A program made the translations under genes and the position numbers. Source: Paramecium tetraurelia (taxonomy: Eukaryota). Taken from it: a stretch of 64,000 nucleotides of DNA. This document shows, piece by piece, positions 27,787 to 34,751 of this stretch; the stretch's first letter is position 1; every line of letters starts with the position of its first letter. Where the stretch lies: the NCBI GenBank assembly GCA_000165425.1, contig CT868001.1, positions 62,001-126,000 on the forward strand, read 5' to 3'. The notes beneath the pieces are model-generated. The model saw only the letters and a list, made by a program, of their open reading frames with translations. It was not told where the DNA came from and ran no database searches.

Positions 27787-30700
27787 ATGATAATGAATAA
27801 TAGGAAGACTCTTTTTGAGTATTCAAAATGGGATCTTTGGATTCACTCCCTAAAGATGTCCATTTACAACCTCACACATAACTTACTCTTAAACAGTGTT
27901 GTAACTGTGCACCTATACAATTTCCTAATTTTATTGGAAACCATGCAAATGGTAATTGAAATCATATAACATTTCAGGTGTACTATTCAATACATCCGAG
28001 CTTTTCATTCCTCTTCCAAACTCCCATTTTCAAATATTTCCGCTTAATTCTATCCTATTTCTAGCCCAACGAAGTATTGGGCAAAGGACAAATAGAAATT
28101 TAGTTAGCACTATTGTACATAGTAATACAAATCACCTATCAAGGTATTCGCAGTATAATTGCTCATGATCGCCTTGAAAATTGTGATCCTCTGCAATTTG
28201 AAAAAGCATACCACATTTTACATCTACACATATCGACTTGTAGCCTACTTCGGAGTATTCTTCAACACAATCCTACTGATTCCATTCACCAACGTGTACA
28301 TCGCCATACTGTATTGCGTGAACTCCAACTTTGAATGCTATGTCGGAGCCTACTATGCTCACTTTGTGTTTTCTGTAACGCGTTTGTGTTTCAATATATT
28401 AGTTTTTGGGACTCTTCATGCACTTGATACACATCGTCTACTTCAACTTGATTTTCATGGAACAGAACCCATTTTCCTCCATCCCTTTTGCCACTCCTCA
28501 ACAAAGTGCCACTCTCATCAAACAAATCATAAAGATCGTCCTGCCCATCTACACCATCTTCGACTACGCTGGCTCCCTAGACAGAGTGTTCATCTCACTC
28601 CTCTGCTTGTCCTACATCTATCTGAATGTGCAACGATTCAAACAACCCAAATACTACAACAAATGGGTTGCTTGGGCCTCGATAATAGAGGAAATCACTT
28701 TGCTCTGGATCACACTCGTGAGTTTCTTCACGGCCTTCATCAATTACAACCAGGCTGAAGACATAGGGTTCTTCTATATGATAATAGGCATCCCCTTGGT
28801 AATTCTTGTTTATTTTCACCTGTTGCATCTCCAAAATAAGAAGGTCCTGTCTATTCTATTCAGAAACATCGAAAGAGACATCGAGGCTGAGATATACCTG
28901 CTCGAAGTCATTAAGTTGATCAAACAGAGAAAAAAGATCTGGTCGCGAATGCTCCTGGAGGGCAAACTGAGATTGCACTCCAAGGCCTGTTAAAACAAGG
29001 ATTGCATCTGCAAGGCTTTGATGCATGAAAACATAAAGGAGGAGGAGATCGATCAATATTGGTATAAGTTTTTGGGATTCCTATTGAATGAGATGAGAGA
29101 AAGGTTCAATAAGAGTTGTAGAATCAATCTTCTGTATGCCTTTTTATTGAATGATCAATTGAACAACCATTTCAAAGCACTCACTGAGATGATGTTCGCA
29201 GAAGACAACAAACCATCCTTATAAGAGGAACTAGCTATGTACCATTATAAATAAATCATCCAACAAAAACTGAAAGACATGGAACAGAAAACCAATGAAA
29301 ATAAAGGAATAGATGTGAATGGAATAATGGTATTCTAGAATACCTTCATCATCTTCCTGAATGCAGTAGAGAAGACAGTCAATTATCACATTGAGTACTG
29401 GCGTGAGTTACTGGAAACTAATCCCGATATTCTAAAATTGAAGGTAGTTGGATCCAAAATAACAAAGAAATTAGAGTAGACAATGATTTAGTATCAGAAA
29501 TTGCAAGAGCTGAATTCTAATCACATTAAGTTTTTAACCATCTATGGCAATTTCTTAAAAGAGATTGTGAATGATGAGGATGAGTCCAATAGGATTCTAG
29601 ACAGAGTTCAGATTTTGATCAAACAATTCCAGAACAATAAGATTCATGATTAAATAAGATTGAAGTATGGAGAGAATGCCAATACATGTATAATAACATG
29701 TTCAGGTAATTTTAACAACATGGGTGTGGTCACCAATTGCAATAATGAAATCACACGACTTCTACAATTTAGTAAGAGTGACATCATGGGTATTAATATC
29801 AATTGCATTATGCCAAAAATATATGCAAGTCATCATGATCAATATATGATTGATTACATAGATACCAGCAAACCAAAAGTGATGGACAAAGAGAGGATCT
29901 TGTGTTGCATTAACTCCCAACAATATTTGGTGCCTTGTTCTTTGATGATCAAGATACTTCCAAATCTAGATGAGGGCATCAAGATGGTTGGATTCTTATA
30001 AGATTACAATAATCAATAGGAATCAAACGAAGAATGGCATTATCTAATAGTTGATGGATACACTCAGACTCTCTTGGGCATCACCTAATCTTGCACTCAA
30101 ATCTTCGGAATTCCACAATCTATTATGACTAATAATACATTCAAATAGAAATTTACTTTTGATGTGCTCTTCCCAAATATAGAAGAACACATCAATATGG
30201 AAGATGGAATCCTCACTTATTTAGATACAACTCAATTGTAGGAAGACTATTTATAAGGAATTGGAGAAAGTCAGAGTGAAATATCAATTGAGGATGACGA
30301 TGATTAATTCTGCGAGTTTCCTCATGATCCATTGAGATCCTCGAATGATACAAGAATACAAAGGTATTTACTCAAACCAGTGGAGGTGAAACAATAAGAC
30401 TAAGTCTCTGATACACCTAGTCCATTGTTTCATAGATTTTAGACTGTTGATTTCAAGAAAAAGAAGAATGACAAATTGCAAAGATACAAAAAGTATAAAG
30501 TTAAATTAGTATTATGCGATCAACTCAAAATTGGAGAAATCAATTTATAAACTATCAAATTTATGTGGATCAAGGAGGATGAGTAGAGTGAACAAATTAT
30601 GAAGATGGATTCCATGAATTCAAAGCAAAATCAAAATAATCAAGATAACAAAATCAGCGATCATTTACAACCAGTAATCGAGGATGGCAATTCAAGTAGA

Positions 30701-32815
30701 TCTTCTAGAACTGAAAATAATCAAAAGGAATTGAAGGAATTCAAATAAATGATATCATCCAAAACTCAACCTAGATCTATAATTATTTTAAAGCGTACAG
30801 TTTGGTTCATTATGATCCTTCTACTAACTTTAAGTACTTTAATTATGGCTTATAGAATCATTTAGATTGATGATGTTAAGGAAGGTGTGAATGCCATCTA
30901 TTAAGGGTATTACAGACATAATATCATCTCTGATGTTGTCTACAATGCTCGCAAATTGCAACTCATTTATAACAATACTTATAATGATGATTTGTAAGTA
31001 GTCAAATCGGATTTATAATATTGGGTCAATTCATTACAACAACTGCAATATGATTTAATCAATGTCAGACTCATTATGGAAAATAGAAAGGGAAGCCAAA
31101 TTCAACCTTAAATGTACACAACCAAGTTCTTAATGTCTAATGGACAAGAAAGCAATTAAGATCTACTCTTTGATGATGCCATGATGTACTTCATCACATC
31201 TGGTTCCTAATTGGACAATGCTTCAAACGATTCCTTTATTTAATCTACAAATAGTGGTTACAAGAATTTCTATTTTCTCATCAATAATGGATACTATGTA
31301 CTCAGAAATGGATCTGAAAACATTGCTAACAATTTCTATTCCTTTTATTCTAATCTTATCTAGGATTACTTGATCAAATTCCTCATCATCATGATCATCG
31401 GCATTGCATTCCTCATCATCTCCTCCTTGGTCTTAATTCCGATTGTCTCACAAGTGCATGATACCAATAATAAAGTCTTGTCCCTTTTTGGTATCATACC
31501 TGTGAATGAATTAAAGGATTTGGTCACTAAATGCGAACAGTACTTAAAGAATTTCTTAAATGAATAAGGAGATTCACATAAACAAACAAAAGTGTAAGAA
31601 GCATAAATTACTCACTAAAATATCATTCATACATCTGGACATGGAGAACAACCATTAATAAATAAGGAACATCCAGAGAAATAAGAGAGTAATGAAGATG
31701 ATGCTAGCAAACTCATTCAAAAACCATAAAAGTTATTGTCATCAGGACATCAAAGTGTAAGTCATGTGAAACAATTATCAAATTTAACTTCTGATGGCTA
31801 ACCTCAAATCCCCATACCAGTTTCTTAAGGTGCAACTAAACACGATTTAAAATTTTCATAAAAGAAATAGTAATAGAAAGAGGAAGAGAAAGAAGATGAT
31901 TAAGAAAATTTAAAAGCAAACAAATTGTTGAATTCTCAAGGAAGTCACAAATGTGCTGTAACTGTCTAGTTTATATTCTTTGCTCTCTTGTTCATTTCCT
32001 ATTTTGTCTTAGATATCATATTAGAATCCTATTTCCTTAAAGAAACTCAGAATATATTTGATCACCTCAAAAACATAGAAGACAGACCCATCAATATTAA
32101 ATACTACATGTACTTGTCAATTGAGCATTTGCTTCTACAGAATCCCACTTCTTTAGATACATATAAGACGGACTTTCAAAACAGATAGTCAGAAAATGAA
32201 CGAAACATATCCATTGAAATTCAATAGTCTCACCCTTCATAATTTGATTCATATTTTTCATTATTGGCTGGTATTTCTTTTAATAGTCTGTGCGACTATC
32301 CATTCACTGTAAACTAATTCACTCTGGTCGCCTCAACTTGCATGGAGGTATAGGCTGGCCTCTTACAATAAGGATTGAAAACTACAATAGCTTCAGTCGC
32401 ATTAACATCTAATGATATGCTAGCTAAGTGGTCATTAAGTAATAAGACTGTTGATGATCTATCCTAAACCTTGAAAGATTATTTTAAAAAGCTAGACTCT
32501 ATTATGCAATATGTATCTAACTGTTGCTATTATCTAACTTTGTAATACTAGTAGGCTACCTTAGATTTTCTGTCATATTCAGAAATGATTGAATAAGTCA
32601 AATTTTCTGTGTTTCTAATTGTTATGTTCTTTGTTTTCATATTTTGCATGACTCAATACTAAAATAATTTGAGTGAATAAATCTGGGAAACTAAGGTACT
32701 CTTATTTTTATTATTGCAGGGCTTGTTGAATATGATTCCTTTAGAGATTATTGCCAAGTATCAACACTTGAAGGATCAATTTGTTGGAGGAGAAATTCTT
32801 AAAGCTGTTCAATGA
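27787..32815 (+). CDS. Large multi-pass membrane protein with PAS domain (TmcB-like/PAS S-box family)
   Basis: N-terminal TM cluster; PAS segment GVVTNCNNEITRLLQFSKSDIMGININCIMPKIYASHHDQYM; C-terminal TM helices and LLNMIP. Introns near 27952, 28375 and 32696; TGA 32813-32815. Confidence 0.85.
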
Positions 32816-33341
32816 ATAAATAATTAATAATTACTCACTGTGAGCACCACAATCCTTGTGTCAATAGCTCTTTTATAATTATTATAAAATAAATATAATA
32901 CTTTGAGAATCATTCATTGTTTTTGTTTTCTGAGTTTTGGTAGTAATGAGATTATGAGCATATGTAAACATGAATATCTTCTCAATCTCAAGCCAAAAAT
33001 AGATACATGACAAACATAATTAATAAATGGACTCAGTTGCTCAGTGCAATAAGGTAAAATTCATAAATAATTTGTATATTTAAAGTTGAAACAATATCTT
33101 TAATCCTTATTTGACTAGAATTATTCAATTTTAAACTCTGTAATTTGAATAATAAGCTTATCAATATCGTTTAAATGTGATTAGAAGGTATCAATTATAG
33201 ATAATCATTAAAAATTTCGTTTATTTTTCTACAAAATTTGACATTATCTATAATAATAAATTTTGTTTATTCTAATTTATTAATCTTCCCTTAATTTTCT
33301 AATTTCCATCATAGATAATACACTCTACTAAAACTTAAATT

Positions 33342-33414
33342 CAATTTGTGGTGATGTGGTTAACACGCCGGATTCCAAATCCGAAGGCCCGAGGTTCGAC
33401 TCCTCGCAAATTGC
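33342..33414 (+). tRNA. Atypical tRNA with CCA (Trp) anticodon and 4-bp anticodon stem
   Basis: Cloverleaf: acceptor CAATTTG/CAAATTG, D-arm GTG..TGGTTAA..CAC, anticodon loop TTCCAAA (CCA 33375-33377), T-arm CGAGG-TTCGACT-CCTCG; followed by T7. Confidence 0.88.
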
Positions 33415-33421
33415 TTTTTTT
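33415..33421 (+). terminator. RNA polymerase III oligo-T terminator
   Basis: TTTTTTT immediately after tRNA position 73. Confidence 0.6.
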
Positions 33422-33476
33422 AATTTTTAATAATAAAAAATAAATTAAATAATTAAGATTCCATTTTCATGATAGA

Positions 33477-34260
33477 TCATAAATAATAATTTTTAAAGTG
33501 TAATCCTCCATATTCTAAAAAAGAGGGGTTTTCTAAGAATTGTTCTTTTGTTTATCTTGTCCAATTCTTTTCAGATAAATATTCAATGTTGATTGCTTTT
33601 TATATAAGACTAGCGCTTGCTGTTTACCAAGTAAATCTAATGTCTTATGGATAAATAAAAACAGGAATTAGATGGATAAATATCTTATTATATTTGTAGC
33701 AATCGAGTATTCCTTTCTTGCTAAGCCACAATTTAGGCTGCAATTATTGTTTAATGCATTCCCACAATAAATTTTAAGTCATTATTTCCTAAGCCAAGAC
33801 TCTTTTTCAAAACTTCATTCAAATTTTCCTTGAAACCAATGCTGATTAATATAACACTCTATCTATTAAATATCTAATTGCTACCAATAATTTTGTATCC
33901 TTTTGACAGTATATTTTTAATAAGTTATAATGTGTAATTTAAACTAATTTCACTTACATCAGAAGGAGTATATGCCAAGATCTTAGTTGATAATTTTTGG
34001 GCGCTAATTTCGATTGTTTCAAATTGCAATGCCTTGCCTTTAAGTTTACTAATTATTTCTGAACTTTCGACTTGATTTTAGTAGAATTGTTTATTGAGTG
34101 ATAAAGAACATTATTTAACAATGTAATTATGATTCGTGATTGGCCAAAAGCAACCTGCAATTATGATAGGTCCATTTAGAAGTCCTCTGCCTGCTTAGAA
34201 AATACCTAGTATCCATTCTGAATTGGCTTTAGAATATTCGTCTAAAACAACAAAAAGTCA
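33477..34260 (-). pseudogene. Degenerate RNase H2 subunit A paralog
   Basis: WILGIFQAGRGLLNGPII (cf. LGIDEAGRGPVLGPMV), IAAQIVAQQERN (cf. SAASICAKVARD), PVFIYPQDIRFTW (cf. PVFGFPQFVRFSW). Upstream in-frame TGA, frameshift near 33670, GSGYP segment missing. Confidence 0.7.
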
Positions 34261-34751
34261 CAAAAGTATGTGGCTATCTAAATGATACTTTCTAAATGTG
34301 TTTCCAAAAGATCATTTAAAATATTGCAAAAGATGAAAATTTTAAATTCAACATTTATTAGATTTTGAATAATTTGATTCCTAATACTCTGATACCTAGC
34401 CTAAATCGCTTTAAATGAGAATTATTTTTCATAATATAATTTAATTTTTCTACATTATTAAAGTGTAAATTAAATTACTATATTATAAAAGTTGCGTGAA
34501 TTAAAAGTAATTTCTTCGAATTAATAAGTAATTGTGAATAAATAATATTAAAATAAATAAATAATTAACATAATATTTAAAGATTTCAAATAAAATTAAA
34601 GAATTATTCTTATTAAAATTAAGAAAATACAAGTAAAATAATATACTAGGGATGAACACTTTTATTTTACAATGTTTGAAATGATCTAAAACAATGATGT
34701 CTTGTAATCTAAAAAAAAATATTTATGGGATCTATTATTTCATTATAATAA

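What the first reader, a model, noticed from the sequence alone, without database searches (positions are those of the whole stretch)
33342..33421. Non-canonical tRNA(CCA) with a 4-bp anticodon stem: candidate UGA-readthrough or non-Trp tRNA where UGA is the only stop
Seen: a full cloverleaf with a perfect 7-bp acceptor stem, 5-bp T-stem, B-box and T7 terminator, so it does not look randomly decayed. However, C27 (33368) and A43 (33384) cannot pair, leaving a 4-bp anticodon stem. The acceptor stem is A/U-rich and starts C1:G72, position 14 is U rather than the near-invariant A, and the discriminator is C73. Established: 4-bp-stem tRNA-Trp(CCA) promotes UGA decoding as Trp in Blastocrithidia and Condylostoma, and eukaryotic Trp identity normally uses A73 and G1:C72. 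Inference: a specialised near-cognate UGA suppressor, a tRNA charged with another amino acid, or a tRNA-like regulatory RNA.
Basis: partly seen in the sequence, partly recalled or inferred. Interest (0 to 1): 0.8.

Follow-up and report, generated by a model that had tools for sequence, protein, structure and literature searches.

The report
Odd tryptophan-type tRNA gene, Paramecium tetraurelia
This is a real but atypical tRNA gene with a tryptophan anticodon and a loosened anticodon stem; it is the more worn of two copies on one Paramecium tetraurelia chromosome, so it is a candidate for reading the UGA stop codon, not a demonstrated case.

Summary
Window 33342-33414 (+) is a well-scoring tRNA gene with anticodon CCA. 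It has a perfect 7-bp A/U-rich acceptor stem (C1:G72), C73, U14, a C27/A43 mismatch that leaves a 4-bp anticodon stem, a B box and a T7 run.

New here:
- The window is Paramecium tetraurelia.
- Public runs hold a second version of the locus, about 6% diverged. It lies next to the intact RNase HII-like gene GSPATT00029875001 on the same scaffold.
- Both tRNA copies share C27/A43, the odd acceptor stem, C73 and CCA. They differ at four unpaired positions only.
- U14 is private to the window copy; the other copy has the canonical A14.
- The window copy sits in a duplicated block whose RNase HII-like gene is broken by a 63-nt deletion plus a frame change.

Most likely this is the junior, possibly decaying copy of a minor, atypical tRNA-Trp-like lineage, not the cell's main tRNA-Trp. 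Nothing here shows UGA readthrough.

A 4-bp-stem tRNA-Trp was already flagged in P. biaurelia (Swart et al. 2023 preprint).

I could not see the rest of the genome, sister-species DNA or tRNA-seq, so function remains open. Interest is moderate.

The parts
33342..33414 (+). tRNA gene, anticodon CCA (Trp by anticodon), 73 nt without CCA tail
   Evidence: ARAGORN; Rfam RF00005 57.6 bits, E 8.1e-10; pair bookkeeping
33368..33384 (+). Anticodon arm. C27 (33368) and A43 (33384) cannot form a standard pair; four pairs remain (28:42 to 31:39); anticodon CCA at 33375-33377
   Evidence: Marked non-canonical by Infernal. Unchanged in the second genomic version
33355..33355 (+). U14 in place of the near-invariant A14; private to the window copy (the second version reads A)
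   Evidence: 33355 T>A in the variant contigs of X12, X17 and X19
33393..33403 (+). B-box-like internal promoter element in the T arm
   Evidence: Read from the sequence; the consensus is recalled, not from a call
33415..33421 (+). T7 run directly after the discriminator, as a Pol III terminator would be
   Evidence: a T run of 7 or more starts within 0-2 nt of 0.08% of window positions
33129..33700 (.). Part of a duplicated block (tRNA plus RNase HII-like gene) laid against a second version about 6% diverged; 33700 is the end of the stretch I laid, not of the block
   Evidence: Variant contigs at about equal depth in X12, X17 and X19: 31 substitutions and 1 gap over 485 nt. The variant letters turn the window translation into P0033
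33480..34230 (-). Broken RNase HII (H2A)-like gene, tail to tail with the tRNA. It lacks 63 nt (21 codons including GSGYPSD) at 33669 and changes frame there. The motif GIFEAGRGPLIGP of the intact relatives reads GIFQAGRGLLNGP here
   Evidence: Pfam PF01351 E 8.7e-4; orthologs P0030 and P0031; tblastn alignments; joint '63 letters between' at 33668/33670
27787..32815 (+). Upstream gene, PAS/TmcB-TPR family, equal to P. tetraurelia GSPATT00029845001; it ends in TGA and has 58 in-frame TAA/TAG in its main ORF

Best explanation
A genuine Pol III-type tRNA gene of Paramecium tetraurelia with a Trp anticodon (CCA). It belongs to a small, atypical tRNA-Trp-like lineage with two copies on one macronuclear scaffold. 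The lineage has an unpaired top anticodon-stem pair (C27/A43) and an acceptor end (C1:G72, C73) that does not match the recalled eukaryotic Trp identity set.

The window copy is the junior member. It arrived with a duplicated block (tRNA plus RNase HII-like gene) whose protein gene has since died, and it has lost the near-invariant A14. Most likely it is a redundant copy that is weakly functional or on its way to being a pseudogene, and it is not the cell's main tRNA-Trp.

Shown: the anatomy, the second copy, the broken neighbour, and which features are shared or private. Inferred: low or absent function, and that canonical 5-bp tRNA-Trp genes exist elsewhere in the genome (by analogy with P. 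biaurelia).
For: Anatomy:
- A real tRNA with only two non-standard pairs.

Species:
- P. tetraurelia GSPATT00029845001 matches the window at 99.25% over 1473 aa and 100% over its first 196 aa. P. octaurelia matches at 97.4%, P. primaurelia and P. pentaurelia at 95.2%, P. sonneborni at 89.7%.

Second version of the locus:
- It stands at about equal depth in 3 of the 4 laid runs. X12: 24.1 vs 13.1 and 14.5 vs 11.7. X17: 87 vs 83.5 and 106.2 vs 69.7. X19: 57.2 vs 66.5.
- Inside the tRNA it differs only at 33350 (position 9), 33355 (14, T>A), 33388 (47) and 33400 (59). C27/A43, the acceptor stem, C73 and CCA are shared.
- Applying the variant letters downstream reproduces 4 of the 5 residues that distinguish P0033 (GSPATT00029875001) from the window. 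The fifth corresponds to 33494 T>C, seen in X12 and X19.
- P0033 is on a contig of the same length (295349) as GSPATT00029845001, 30 gene numbers away.

The window block is decaying:
- The window's RNase HII-like copy lacks 21 codons, including GSGYPSD, and shifts frame at 33669. It has three changes in a motif that is identical in 4 of 4 intact relatives.
- P. octaurelia also has a degenerate copy (P0032), two accession numbers after its PAS-family ortholog.

Divergence:
- tRNA 4/73 against the rest of the block 27/412, Fisher p = 1.0. There is no excess conservation, and one change hits A14.

Copy number and literature:
- No depth excess over the tRNA beyond the overlap of contigs, so only two copies of this type were seen.
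- In P. biaurelia only 'at least one' of eight tRNA-Trp genes has a 4-bp stem.
Against: - All 4 differences between the two copies fall in the 31 unpaired positions and none in the 42 paired ones. Chance is 0.03 if changes fell at random. That is what selection for the cloverleaf would give, so the window copy may still be constrained.
- A perfect 7-bp acceptor stem, a 5-bp T stem, a B box and a T7 run survive in a block whose protein gene has decayed.
- In run X18, whose kind (RNA) is only guessed, a window-type contig covers 33169-33416 and stops 2 nt into the T run, while the adjacent pseudogene is uncovered. This could be a transcript end.
- I could not see the rest of the genome. That canonical tRNA-Trp genes exist in P. 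tetraurelia is therefore assumed, not shown.
Confidence: 0.55

Rival explanations
1. A functional near-cognate UGA decoder. The lineage, chiefly the A14 copy and perhaps this one, is expressed and charged with Trp. Because its top anticodon-stem pair is unpinned, it inserts Trp at a fraction of UGA stops. That would be low-level or programmed readthrough in a ciliate whose only stop is UGA.
For: - The unpaired pair is the same top pair whose disruption raises UGA reading by tRNA-Trp(CCA) in Blastocrithidia, Condylostoma, yeast, T. brucei and E. coli reporters (passages read).
- The mismatch is shared by both copies, so it is older than the duplication, which is at least as old as the tetraurelia-octaurelia split.
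- No stem changes between the copies.
- U11:A24 is present. A24 is the state of the Hirsh suppressor, but many tRNAs have it.
- Ciliates with UAR=Gln show an excess of tandem stops, read by the authors as pressure from readthrough (abstract).
Against: - UGA is not known to be translated in the P. aurelia complex.
- The two genes flanking the tRNA end in TGA.
- 6.5% of standard-code bacterial genomes carry only 4-bp-stem tRNA-Trp, so the stem alone does not imply UGA decoding.
- C73 and C1:G72 should make it a poor TrpRS substrate (recalled identity rules).
- The window copy has lost A14.
- No expression or charging data.
Confidence: 0.12
2. A tRNA with changed identity. It keeps the CCA anticodon but is charged by another synthetase because of its acceptor end, so it would put a non-Trp residue at UGG (or UGA).
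For: C1:G72, an A/U-rich acceptor stem and C73 differ from the eukaryotic Trp set as I recall it (G1:C72, A73). The perfect pairing of so unusual a stem suggests it was shaped by selection.
Against: - TrpRS identity rests largely on the CCA anticodon (recalled).
- The anticodon arm and variable loop look Trp-like to me (recalled comparison, not a test).
- No isotype-specific model could be run here.
- Mis-incorporation at UGG would be harmful.
- I do not know what the standard Paramecium tRNA-Trp acceptor end looks like.
Confidence: 0.08
3. It is simply what tRNA-Trp looks like in Paramecium tetraurelia, and the features are species norms.
For: I could not inspect any other tRNA-Trp gene of this genome. 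4-bp-stem tRNA-Trp decodes UGG normally where it is the only form.
Against: - Only two copies of this type appear in three runs laid at 80% likeness or more.
- P. biaurelia has eight tRNA-Trp genes, of which 'at least one' has 4 bp.
- One of the two copies lacks A14 and lies in a dead duplicate.
Confidence: 0.08
4. A tRNA-like element with a non-translational role, for example a TFIIIC/Pol III binding site or a source of small RNAs.
For: Intact B box and terminator but weakened tertiary core (U14, A13/A22). A possible 5'-extended transcript in X18 (the run kind is guessed).
Against: No conservation data. Nothing ties it to any such pathway. The second copy has a normal A14.
Confidence: 0.07

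Closest known systems
4-bp anticodon-stem tRNA-Trp(CCA) of Blastocrithidia nonstop, Condylostoma magnum, Blepharisma and Loxodes (Kachale et al. 2023; Swart et al. 2023 preprint)
   Same: CCA anticodon; the top pair of the anticodon stem is unpaired and the other four pairs are intact; found in a ciliate.
   Different: Those organisms translate UGA as Trp, and the 4-bp form is their only or dominant tRNA-Trp. Here UGA is the stop, the type has two copies, one is degraded, and the acceptor end is unusual. Activity is untested.
Paramecium biaurelia 4-bp anticodon-stem tRNA-Trp(CCA) (Swart et al. 2023 bioRxiv, Extended Data Fig. 1a)
   Same: Same species complex, same genetic code (UAR=Q, UGA=stop), same kind of tRNA, described as a minority among the tRNA-Trp genes.
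   Different: Different species. I could not see the figure or the source data (bioRxiv supplements are closed), so orthology and shared acceptor features are unknown. The paper reports no second copy or genomic context.
Bacterial 4-bp anticodon-stem tRNA-Trp(CCA) in standard-code genomes (Fakih et al. 2026, NAR)
   Same: The unpaired top pair coexists with UGA used as a stop. In my metagenome scan, 16 of 119 bacterial-type tRNA-Trp genes with the same 28-42 core had 27/43 unpaired, 12 of them as C/A like here.
   Different: Unrelated outside the anticodon arm (at most 45 of 73 ungapped identities). The bacterial genes have a bacterial acceptor end and an encoded CCA tail.
E. coli UGA or UAA suppressors with mutations outside the anticodon (Hirsh G24A; su7 27/43 mutants of Schultz and Yarus)
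   Same: A disrupted 27/43 pair, and A at position 24 paired with U11.
   Different: Those are laboratory mutants with measured suppression. U11:A24 is a common natural pair and proves nothing here.
Decaying tRNA gene duplicates (tRNA pseudogenes)
   Same: A junior copy in a duplicated block with a dead neighbour gene, loss of invariant A14, and divergence equal to that of the flanks.
   Different: All stems, the B box and the terminator are still intact, and the score is well above the family threshold.

Membership tests
tRNA (Rfam RF00005) | Cloverleaf sequence and structure scoring above the gathering threshold | tested here: met
   57.6 bits against 29, full-length match; ARAGORN agrees
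Eukaryotic cytosolic tRNA-Trp (identity set as recalled: CCA anticodon, A73, G1:C72) | Anticodon CCA | tested here: met
   33375-33377
Eukaryotic cytosolic tRNA-Trp (identity set as recalled: CCA anticodon, A73, G1:C72) | Discriminator A73 and first pair G1:C72 | tested here: not met
   C73 at 33414 and C1:G72. The rule itself is recalled from the literature, not from a call, and the Paramecium norm is unknown to me
Eukaryotic cytosolic tRNA-Trp (identity set as recalled: CCA anticodon, A73, G1:C72) | Charged by TrpRS | not testable with these tools
   Needs charging assays or isotype-specific models
Blastocrithidia-like 4-bp-stem tRNA-Trp(CCA) UGA decoders | Top anticodon-stem pair unpaired, other four pairs intact | tested here: met
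   C27/A43 is the only mismatch in the arm; kept in the second copy
Blastocrithidia-like 4-bp-stem tRNA-Trp(CCA) UGA decoders | Host translates in-frame UGA as Trp | tested here: not met
   Both neighbouring genes end in TGA. The upstream ORF is open with TAA/TAG as sense and matches the annotated protein to its end. The published code for the aurelia complex is UAR=Q, UGA=stop. Rare readthrough is not excluded
Blastocrithidia-like 4-bp-stem tRNA-Trp(CCA) UGA decoders | It is the only or dominant tRNA-Trp of the genome | not testable with these tools
   No whole genome is held. Two copies of this type were seen. In P. biaurelia it is a minority form
Blastocrithidia-like 4-bp-stem tRNA-Trp(CCA) UGA decoders | Measured UGA readthrough | not testable with these tools
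   Needs a reporter assay
tRNA pseudogene or decaying duplicate | Lies in a duplicated segment with other decayed genes | tested here: met
   The RNase HII-like neighbour has a 63-nt deletion plus a frame change, while an intact paralog, P0033, is on the same scaffold
tRNA pseudogene or decaying duplicate | Loss of invariant nucleotides or broken stems | tested here: inconclusive
   A14 is lost in this copy only, but 19 of 21 pairs are standard and there are no stem changes between the copies
tRNA pseudogene or decaying duplicate | Evolves at the neutral rate | tested here: inconclusive
   4/73 against 27/412, p = 1.0. All 4 changes are in unpaired positions (chance 0.03). The numbers are too small
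tRNA pseudogene or decaying duplicate | Not expressed or not processed | not testable with these tools
   No RNA holder is on record

The most novel reading that the evidence does not exclude
Paramecium tetraurelia, whose only stop codon is UGA, maintains a minor tRNA(CCA) lineage with an unpinned anticodon stem and a non-Trp-like acceptor end: the copy beside GSPATT00029875001 plus this duplicate. The lineage is expressed and inserts Trp, or another residue, at a fraction of UGA codons. That would be a standing 'ambiguous intermediate' of stop-codon reassignment in a genetically tractable ciliate.
Probability: 0.1. Interest if true: 0.8.

Novelty: new member of a known kind. Interest (0 to 1): 0.35.

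Why it matters
The current model links 4-bp-stem tRNA-Trp(CCA) to UGA-to-Trp reassignment. It cites the absence of such tRNAs in UGA-stop ciliates as support. Paramecium would be a counter-example: one such gene was flagged in P. biaurelia with a call for experiments.

Finding the type in P. tetraurelia, the laboratory model with microinjection, RNAi and many sequencing data sets, makes the test practical. The two natural variants (A14 and U14) and the precise address next to GSPATT00029875001 add to that. If the tRNAs are silent or uncharged, the case shows instead that such genes can persist as harmless relics, and that a 4-bp stem seen in a genome scan is not evidence of recoding.

Tried and rejected
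Genome and orthologs:
- Whole genome: none is held. I could not list the other tRNA-Trp genes or fetch the second copy as DNA.
All were bacterial-type tRNA-Trp, none like the window tRNA outside the anticodon arm (at most 45 of 73 identities).
- A pattern of D arm plus anticodon arm gave 0 hits in genome contigs and 0 in viral contigs. So I found no bacterial or viral source, but also no orthologs.

Expression:
- No RNA holder is listed.
- Run X18 is RNA only by a guess. It has one window-type contig (248 nt, depth 4.25) covering 33169-33416 that stops 2 nt into the T run. It has no cover of 33436-33624. A depth-25.7 contig comes from the second version's RNase gene.
- This fits a transcript ending at the Pol III terminator, but it is one run of uncertain kind and a contig end. 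I do not count it as evidence.
- In X19 the window-type contig for about 33270-33357 is missing. The tool warns that a hole proves nothing.

Earlier findings of this scan:
- Nothing on this genome or sequence. Word searches gave only other organisms.

Other computations:
- The ORF at 33822-34571 (-) had no homolog and is rejected as a gene. The real gene is the RNase HII-like one in other frames.
- The MFE fold of the bare sequence is not a cloverleaf, z = -1.06. This is uninformative for a tRNA.
- The bacterial promoter/terminator scan is irrelevant for a eukaryote.

Literature:
- The Kachale et al. 2023 Nature paper is not held. I relied on passages.

Origins considered and rejected:
- A mitochondrial (NUMT) origin is unlikely. 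Ciliate mitochondrial genomes encode tRNA-Trp(UCA), and Paramecium mtDNA has a tRNA-Trp gene. Here the anticodon is CCA, and the gene has a nuclear setting with a T7 terminator. No mitochondrial sequence was available to compare.
- A gene on the minus strand: both programs call the plus strand only.
- The second version as a whole-genome-duplication ohnolog: rejected, because its protein gene is on a contig of the same length as the window's upstream gene, 30 gene numbers away.

Full report
**What is there**

The 64-kb window holds one tRNA gene, at 33342-33414 on the plus strand.
- ARAGORN calls it tRNA-Trp with anticodon CCA.
- Rfam's tRNA model gives 57.6 bits against a threshold of 29, E 8.1e-10, over the full model.
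- The Infernal alignment flags just two non-standard pairs, A13/A22 in the D stem and C27/A43 at the top of the anticodon stem.
- Pair by pair, 19 of 21 stem pairs are standard. The acceptor stem is a perfect 7 bp: C1:G72, five A:U pairs and G7:C66. The T stem is a perfect 5 bp. The anticodon stem keeps four pairs.
- Position 14 (33355) is U, the discriminator (33414) is C, and pair 11:24 is U:A.
- The T arm carries a B-box-like GGTTCGACTCC (the consensus is recalled).
- Seven T's follow the discriminator directly. A T run of 7 or more starts within 0-2 nt of only 0.08% of window positions.

**Whose DNA it is**

- The window is about 28% G+C. Long ORFs appear only when TAA and TAG are read as sense.
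- The gene upstream of the tRNA (27787-32815, +) is a PAS/TmcB-TPR family gene. It matches P. tetraurelia GSPATT00029845001 at 99.25% over 1473 residues and at 100% over the first 196.
- The other species match less well: P. octaurelia 97.4%, P. primaurelia and P. pentaurelia 95.2%, P. sonneborni 89.7%.
- The window is therefore Paramecium tetraurelia macronuclear DNA.
- Both genes flanking the tRNA end in TGA. The published code of the aurelia complex is UAR=Gln, UGA=stop.

**A second copy, and what it says**

No whole genome is held, so I used public runs. Twenty of the 24 listed rows hold the stretch, from 7 named studies.

I laid the contigs of four runs on 33100-33700 at 80% likeness or more. 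Three of them (X12, X17, X19) cover all bins and contain two versions of the locus at roughly equal depth. One is the window version. The other differs by 31 substitutions and one gap over the 485 nt that the listed variant contigs cover.

Inside the tRNA the second version differs at four places:
- 33350 (position 9, G>A)
- 33355 (position 14, T>A)
- 33388 (position 47, C>T)
- 33400 (position 59, C>A)

It does not differ at 33368 or 33384, in the acceptor stem, at C73 or in the anticodon. So the 4-bp anticodon stem and the odd acceptor end belong to both copies and predate their split. U14 is private to the window copy; the sister has the canonical A14. Depth over the tRNA shows no excess beyond what overlapping contigs explain, so I saw only these two copies of this tRNA type.

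**Where the second copy lies**

Downstream of the tRNA, tail to tail on the minus strand (33480-34230), is an RNase HII (H2A)-like gene.
- Pfam PF01351 matches at E 8.7e-4.
- 281-aa relatives exist in P. octaurelia and P. pentaurelia, and in P. tetraurelia and P. primaurelia.

The window copy is broken.
- It lacks residues 198-218 of the relatives, 21 codons that include the GSGYPSD motif.
- It changes reading frame at 33669.
- It reads GIFQAGRGLLNGP where 4 of 4 intact relatives read GIFEAGRGPLIGP.

That gap is exactly the joint '63 letters between 33668 and 33670' carried by the second version in all four runs.

Putting the second version's five letters (33569, 33573, 33604, 33619, 33632) into the window turns its translation into that of P0033 (GSPATT00029875001) at 4 of the 5 residues that differ. 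The fifth corresponds to 33494 T>C, which X12 and X19 show at full depth and X17 does not.

P0033 lies on a contig of the same length (295349) as GSPATT00029845001 and is 30 gene numbers away. The second version is therefore an intrachromosomal paralog, not a whole-genome-duplication ohnolog.

P. octaurelia also carries a degenerate copy (P0032), two accession numbers after its PAS-family ortholog, besides its intact gene. The duplication is thus at least as old as the tetraurelia-octaurelia ancestor. The intact P. tetraurelia and P. octaurelia proteins are 271/281 identical.

**Is the window tRNA still under selection?**

The data pull both ways and are thin.
- For decay: the tRNA differs from its sister at 4 of 73 positions, against 27 of 412 in the rest of the block (Fisher p = 1.0). 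Against the non-coding flanks alone it is 22 of 275 (p = 0.62).
- For decay: one of the four changes removes A14, which is close to invariant in tRNAs (established knowledge).
- For decay: the neighbouring gene in the same block is dead.
- For constraint: all four changes lie in the 31 unpaired positions and none in the 42 paired ones, a chance of 0.03 under random placement.
- For constraint: the stems, B box and terminator have outlived the protein gene.

**Expression**

No listed holder is on record as RNA, so expression is untested. One run of guessed RNA kind (X18) shows a pattern compatible with a transcript ending in the T run. I list it under Tried and rejected only.

**Comparison with what is known**

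- Unpinning the top anticodon-stem pair of tRNA-Trp(CCA) raises UGA reading. It is the natural state in Blastocrithidia, Condylostoma, Blepharisma and Loxodes, which translate UGA as Trp (passages read). Older E. coli work on 27/43 mutants and the Hirsh A24 mutant points the same way.
- The stem alone is not diagnostic. 6.5% of standard-code bacterial genomes have only 4-bp-stem tRNA-Trp. In my own scan, 16 of 119 bacterial-type tRNA-Trp genes with the same stem core had an unpaired 27/43, 12 of them C/A.
- Swart et al. (bioRxiv 2023; whole text read) already report 'at least one' 4-bp-stem tRNA-Trp among eight tRNA-Trp genes in P. biaurelia and ask for experiments. Their figure and source data were not available to me, so I cannot say whether it is the ortholog of this gene.
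- Three library searches for Paramecium with 4-bp stem terms found no other paper that links the two. Two broader searches on Paramecium tRNA genes and UGA readthrough listed none either. I found no report for P. tetraurelia.

**Verdict**

The most likely reading (0.55) is a minor, atypical tRNA-Trp-like lineage of two genes, of which the window gene is the junior and partly degraded copy.

The suppressor reading (0.12) and the changed-identity reading (0.08) remain open. They are better tested on the A14 copy beside GSPATT00029875001.

The main gaps:
- I could not see the other tRNA-Trp genes of this genome.
- I could not see the sister-species loci.
- I had no tRNA-seq.
- The Trp identity rules I apply (A73, G1:C72) are recalled, not tested here.

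Noticed in passing
window 33480-34230 (-), and proteins P0030, P0031, P0033, P0034: The RNase HII-like family next to the tRNA reads GIFEAGRG in 4 of 4 intact Paramecium proteins examined. As I recall, RNase HII enzymes have GIDEAGRG there, with a catalytic Asp. GSGYPSD is kept. This may be a conserved, catalytically altered RNase H2A paralog. The window copy is a pseudogene of it (63-nt deletion, frame change).
   Followed up: partly
window 33494: T>C is carried at full depth by the single contig of X12 and of X19, but not by X17 or the window. It changes Lys to Glu, the residue of P0033. This could be a strain polymorphism or gene conversion between the two copies.
   Followed up: no
loci L001-L119 (metagenome contigs): 16 of 119 bacterial-type tRNA-Trp(CCA) genes sharing the 28-42 anticodon-arm core have an unpaired 27/43. 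Twelve of these are C/A, mostly on low-GC contigs (mean 0.37). This fits the published frequency of 4-bp stems in bacteria.
   Followed up: partly
window 32816-33341: A 526-nt gap without a recognised gene lies between the upstream gene's stop and the tRNA. The X18 contig (run kind guessed) starts inside it at 33169. It may be an unannotated transcript or a long tRNA leader.
   Followed up: no
P0032 (P. octaurelia, 129 aa): This annotated 'uncharacterized protein' matches the window's RNase HII-like pseudogene in two different frames. It is probably a mis-annotated pseudogene, the P. octaurelia counterpart of the window copy.
   Followed up: partly
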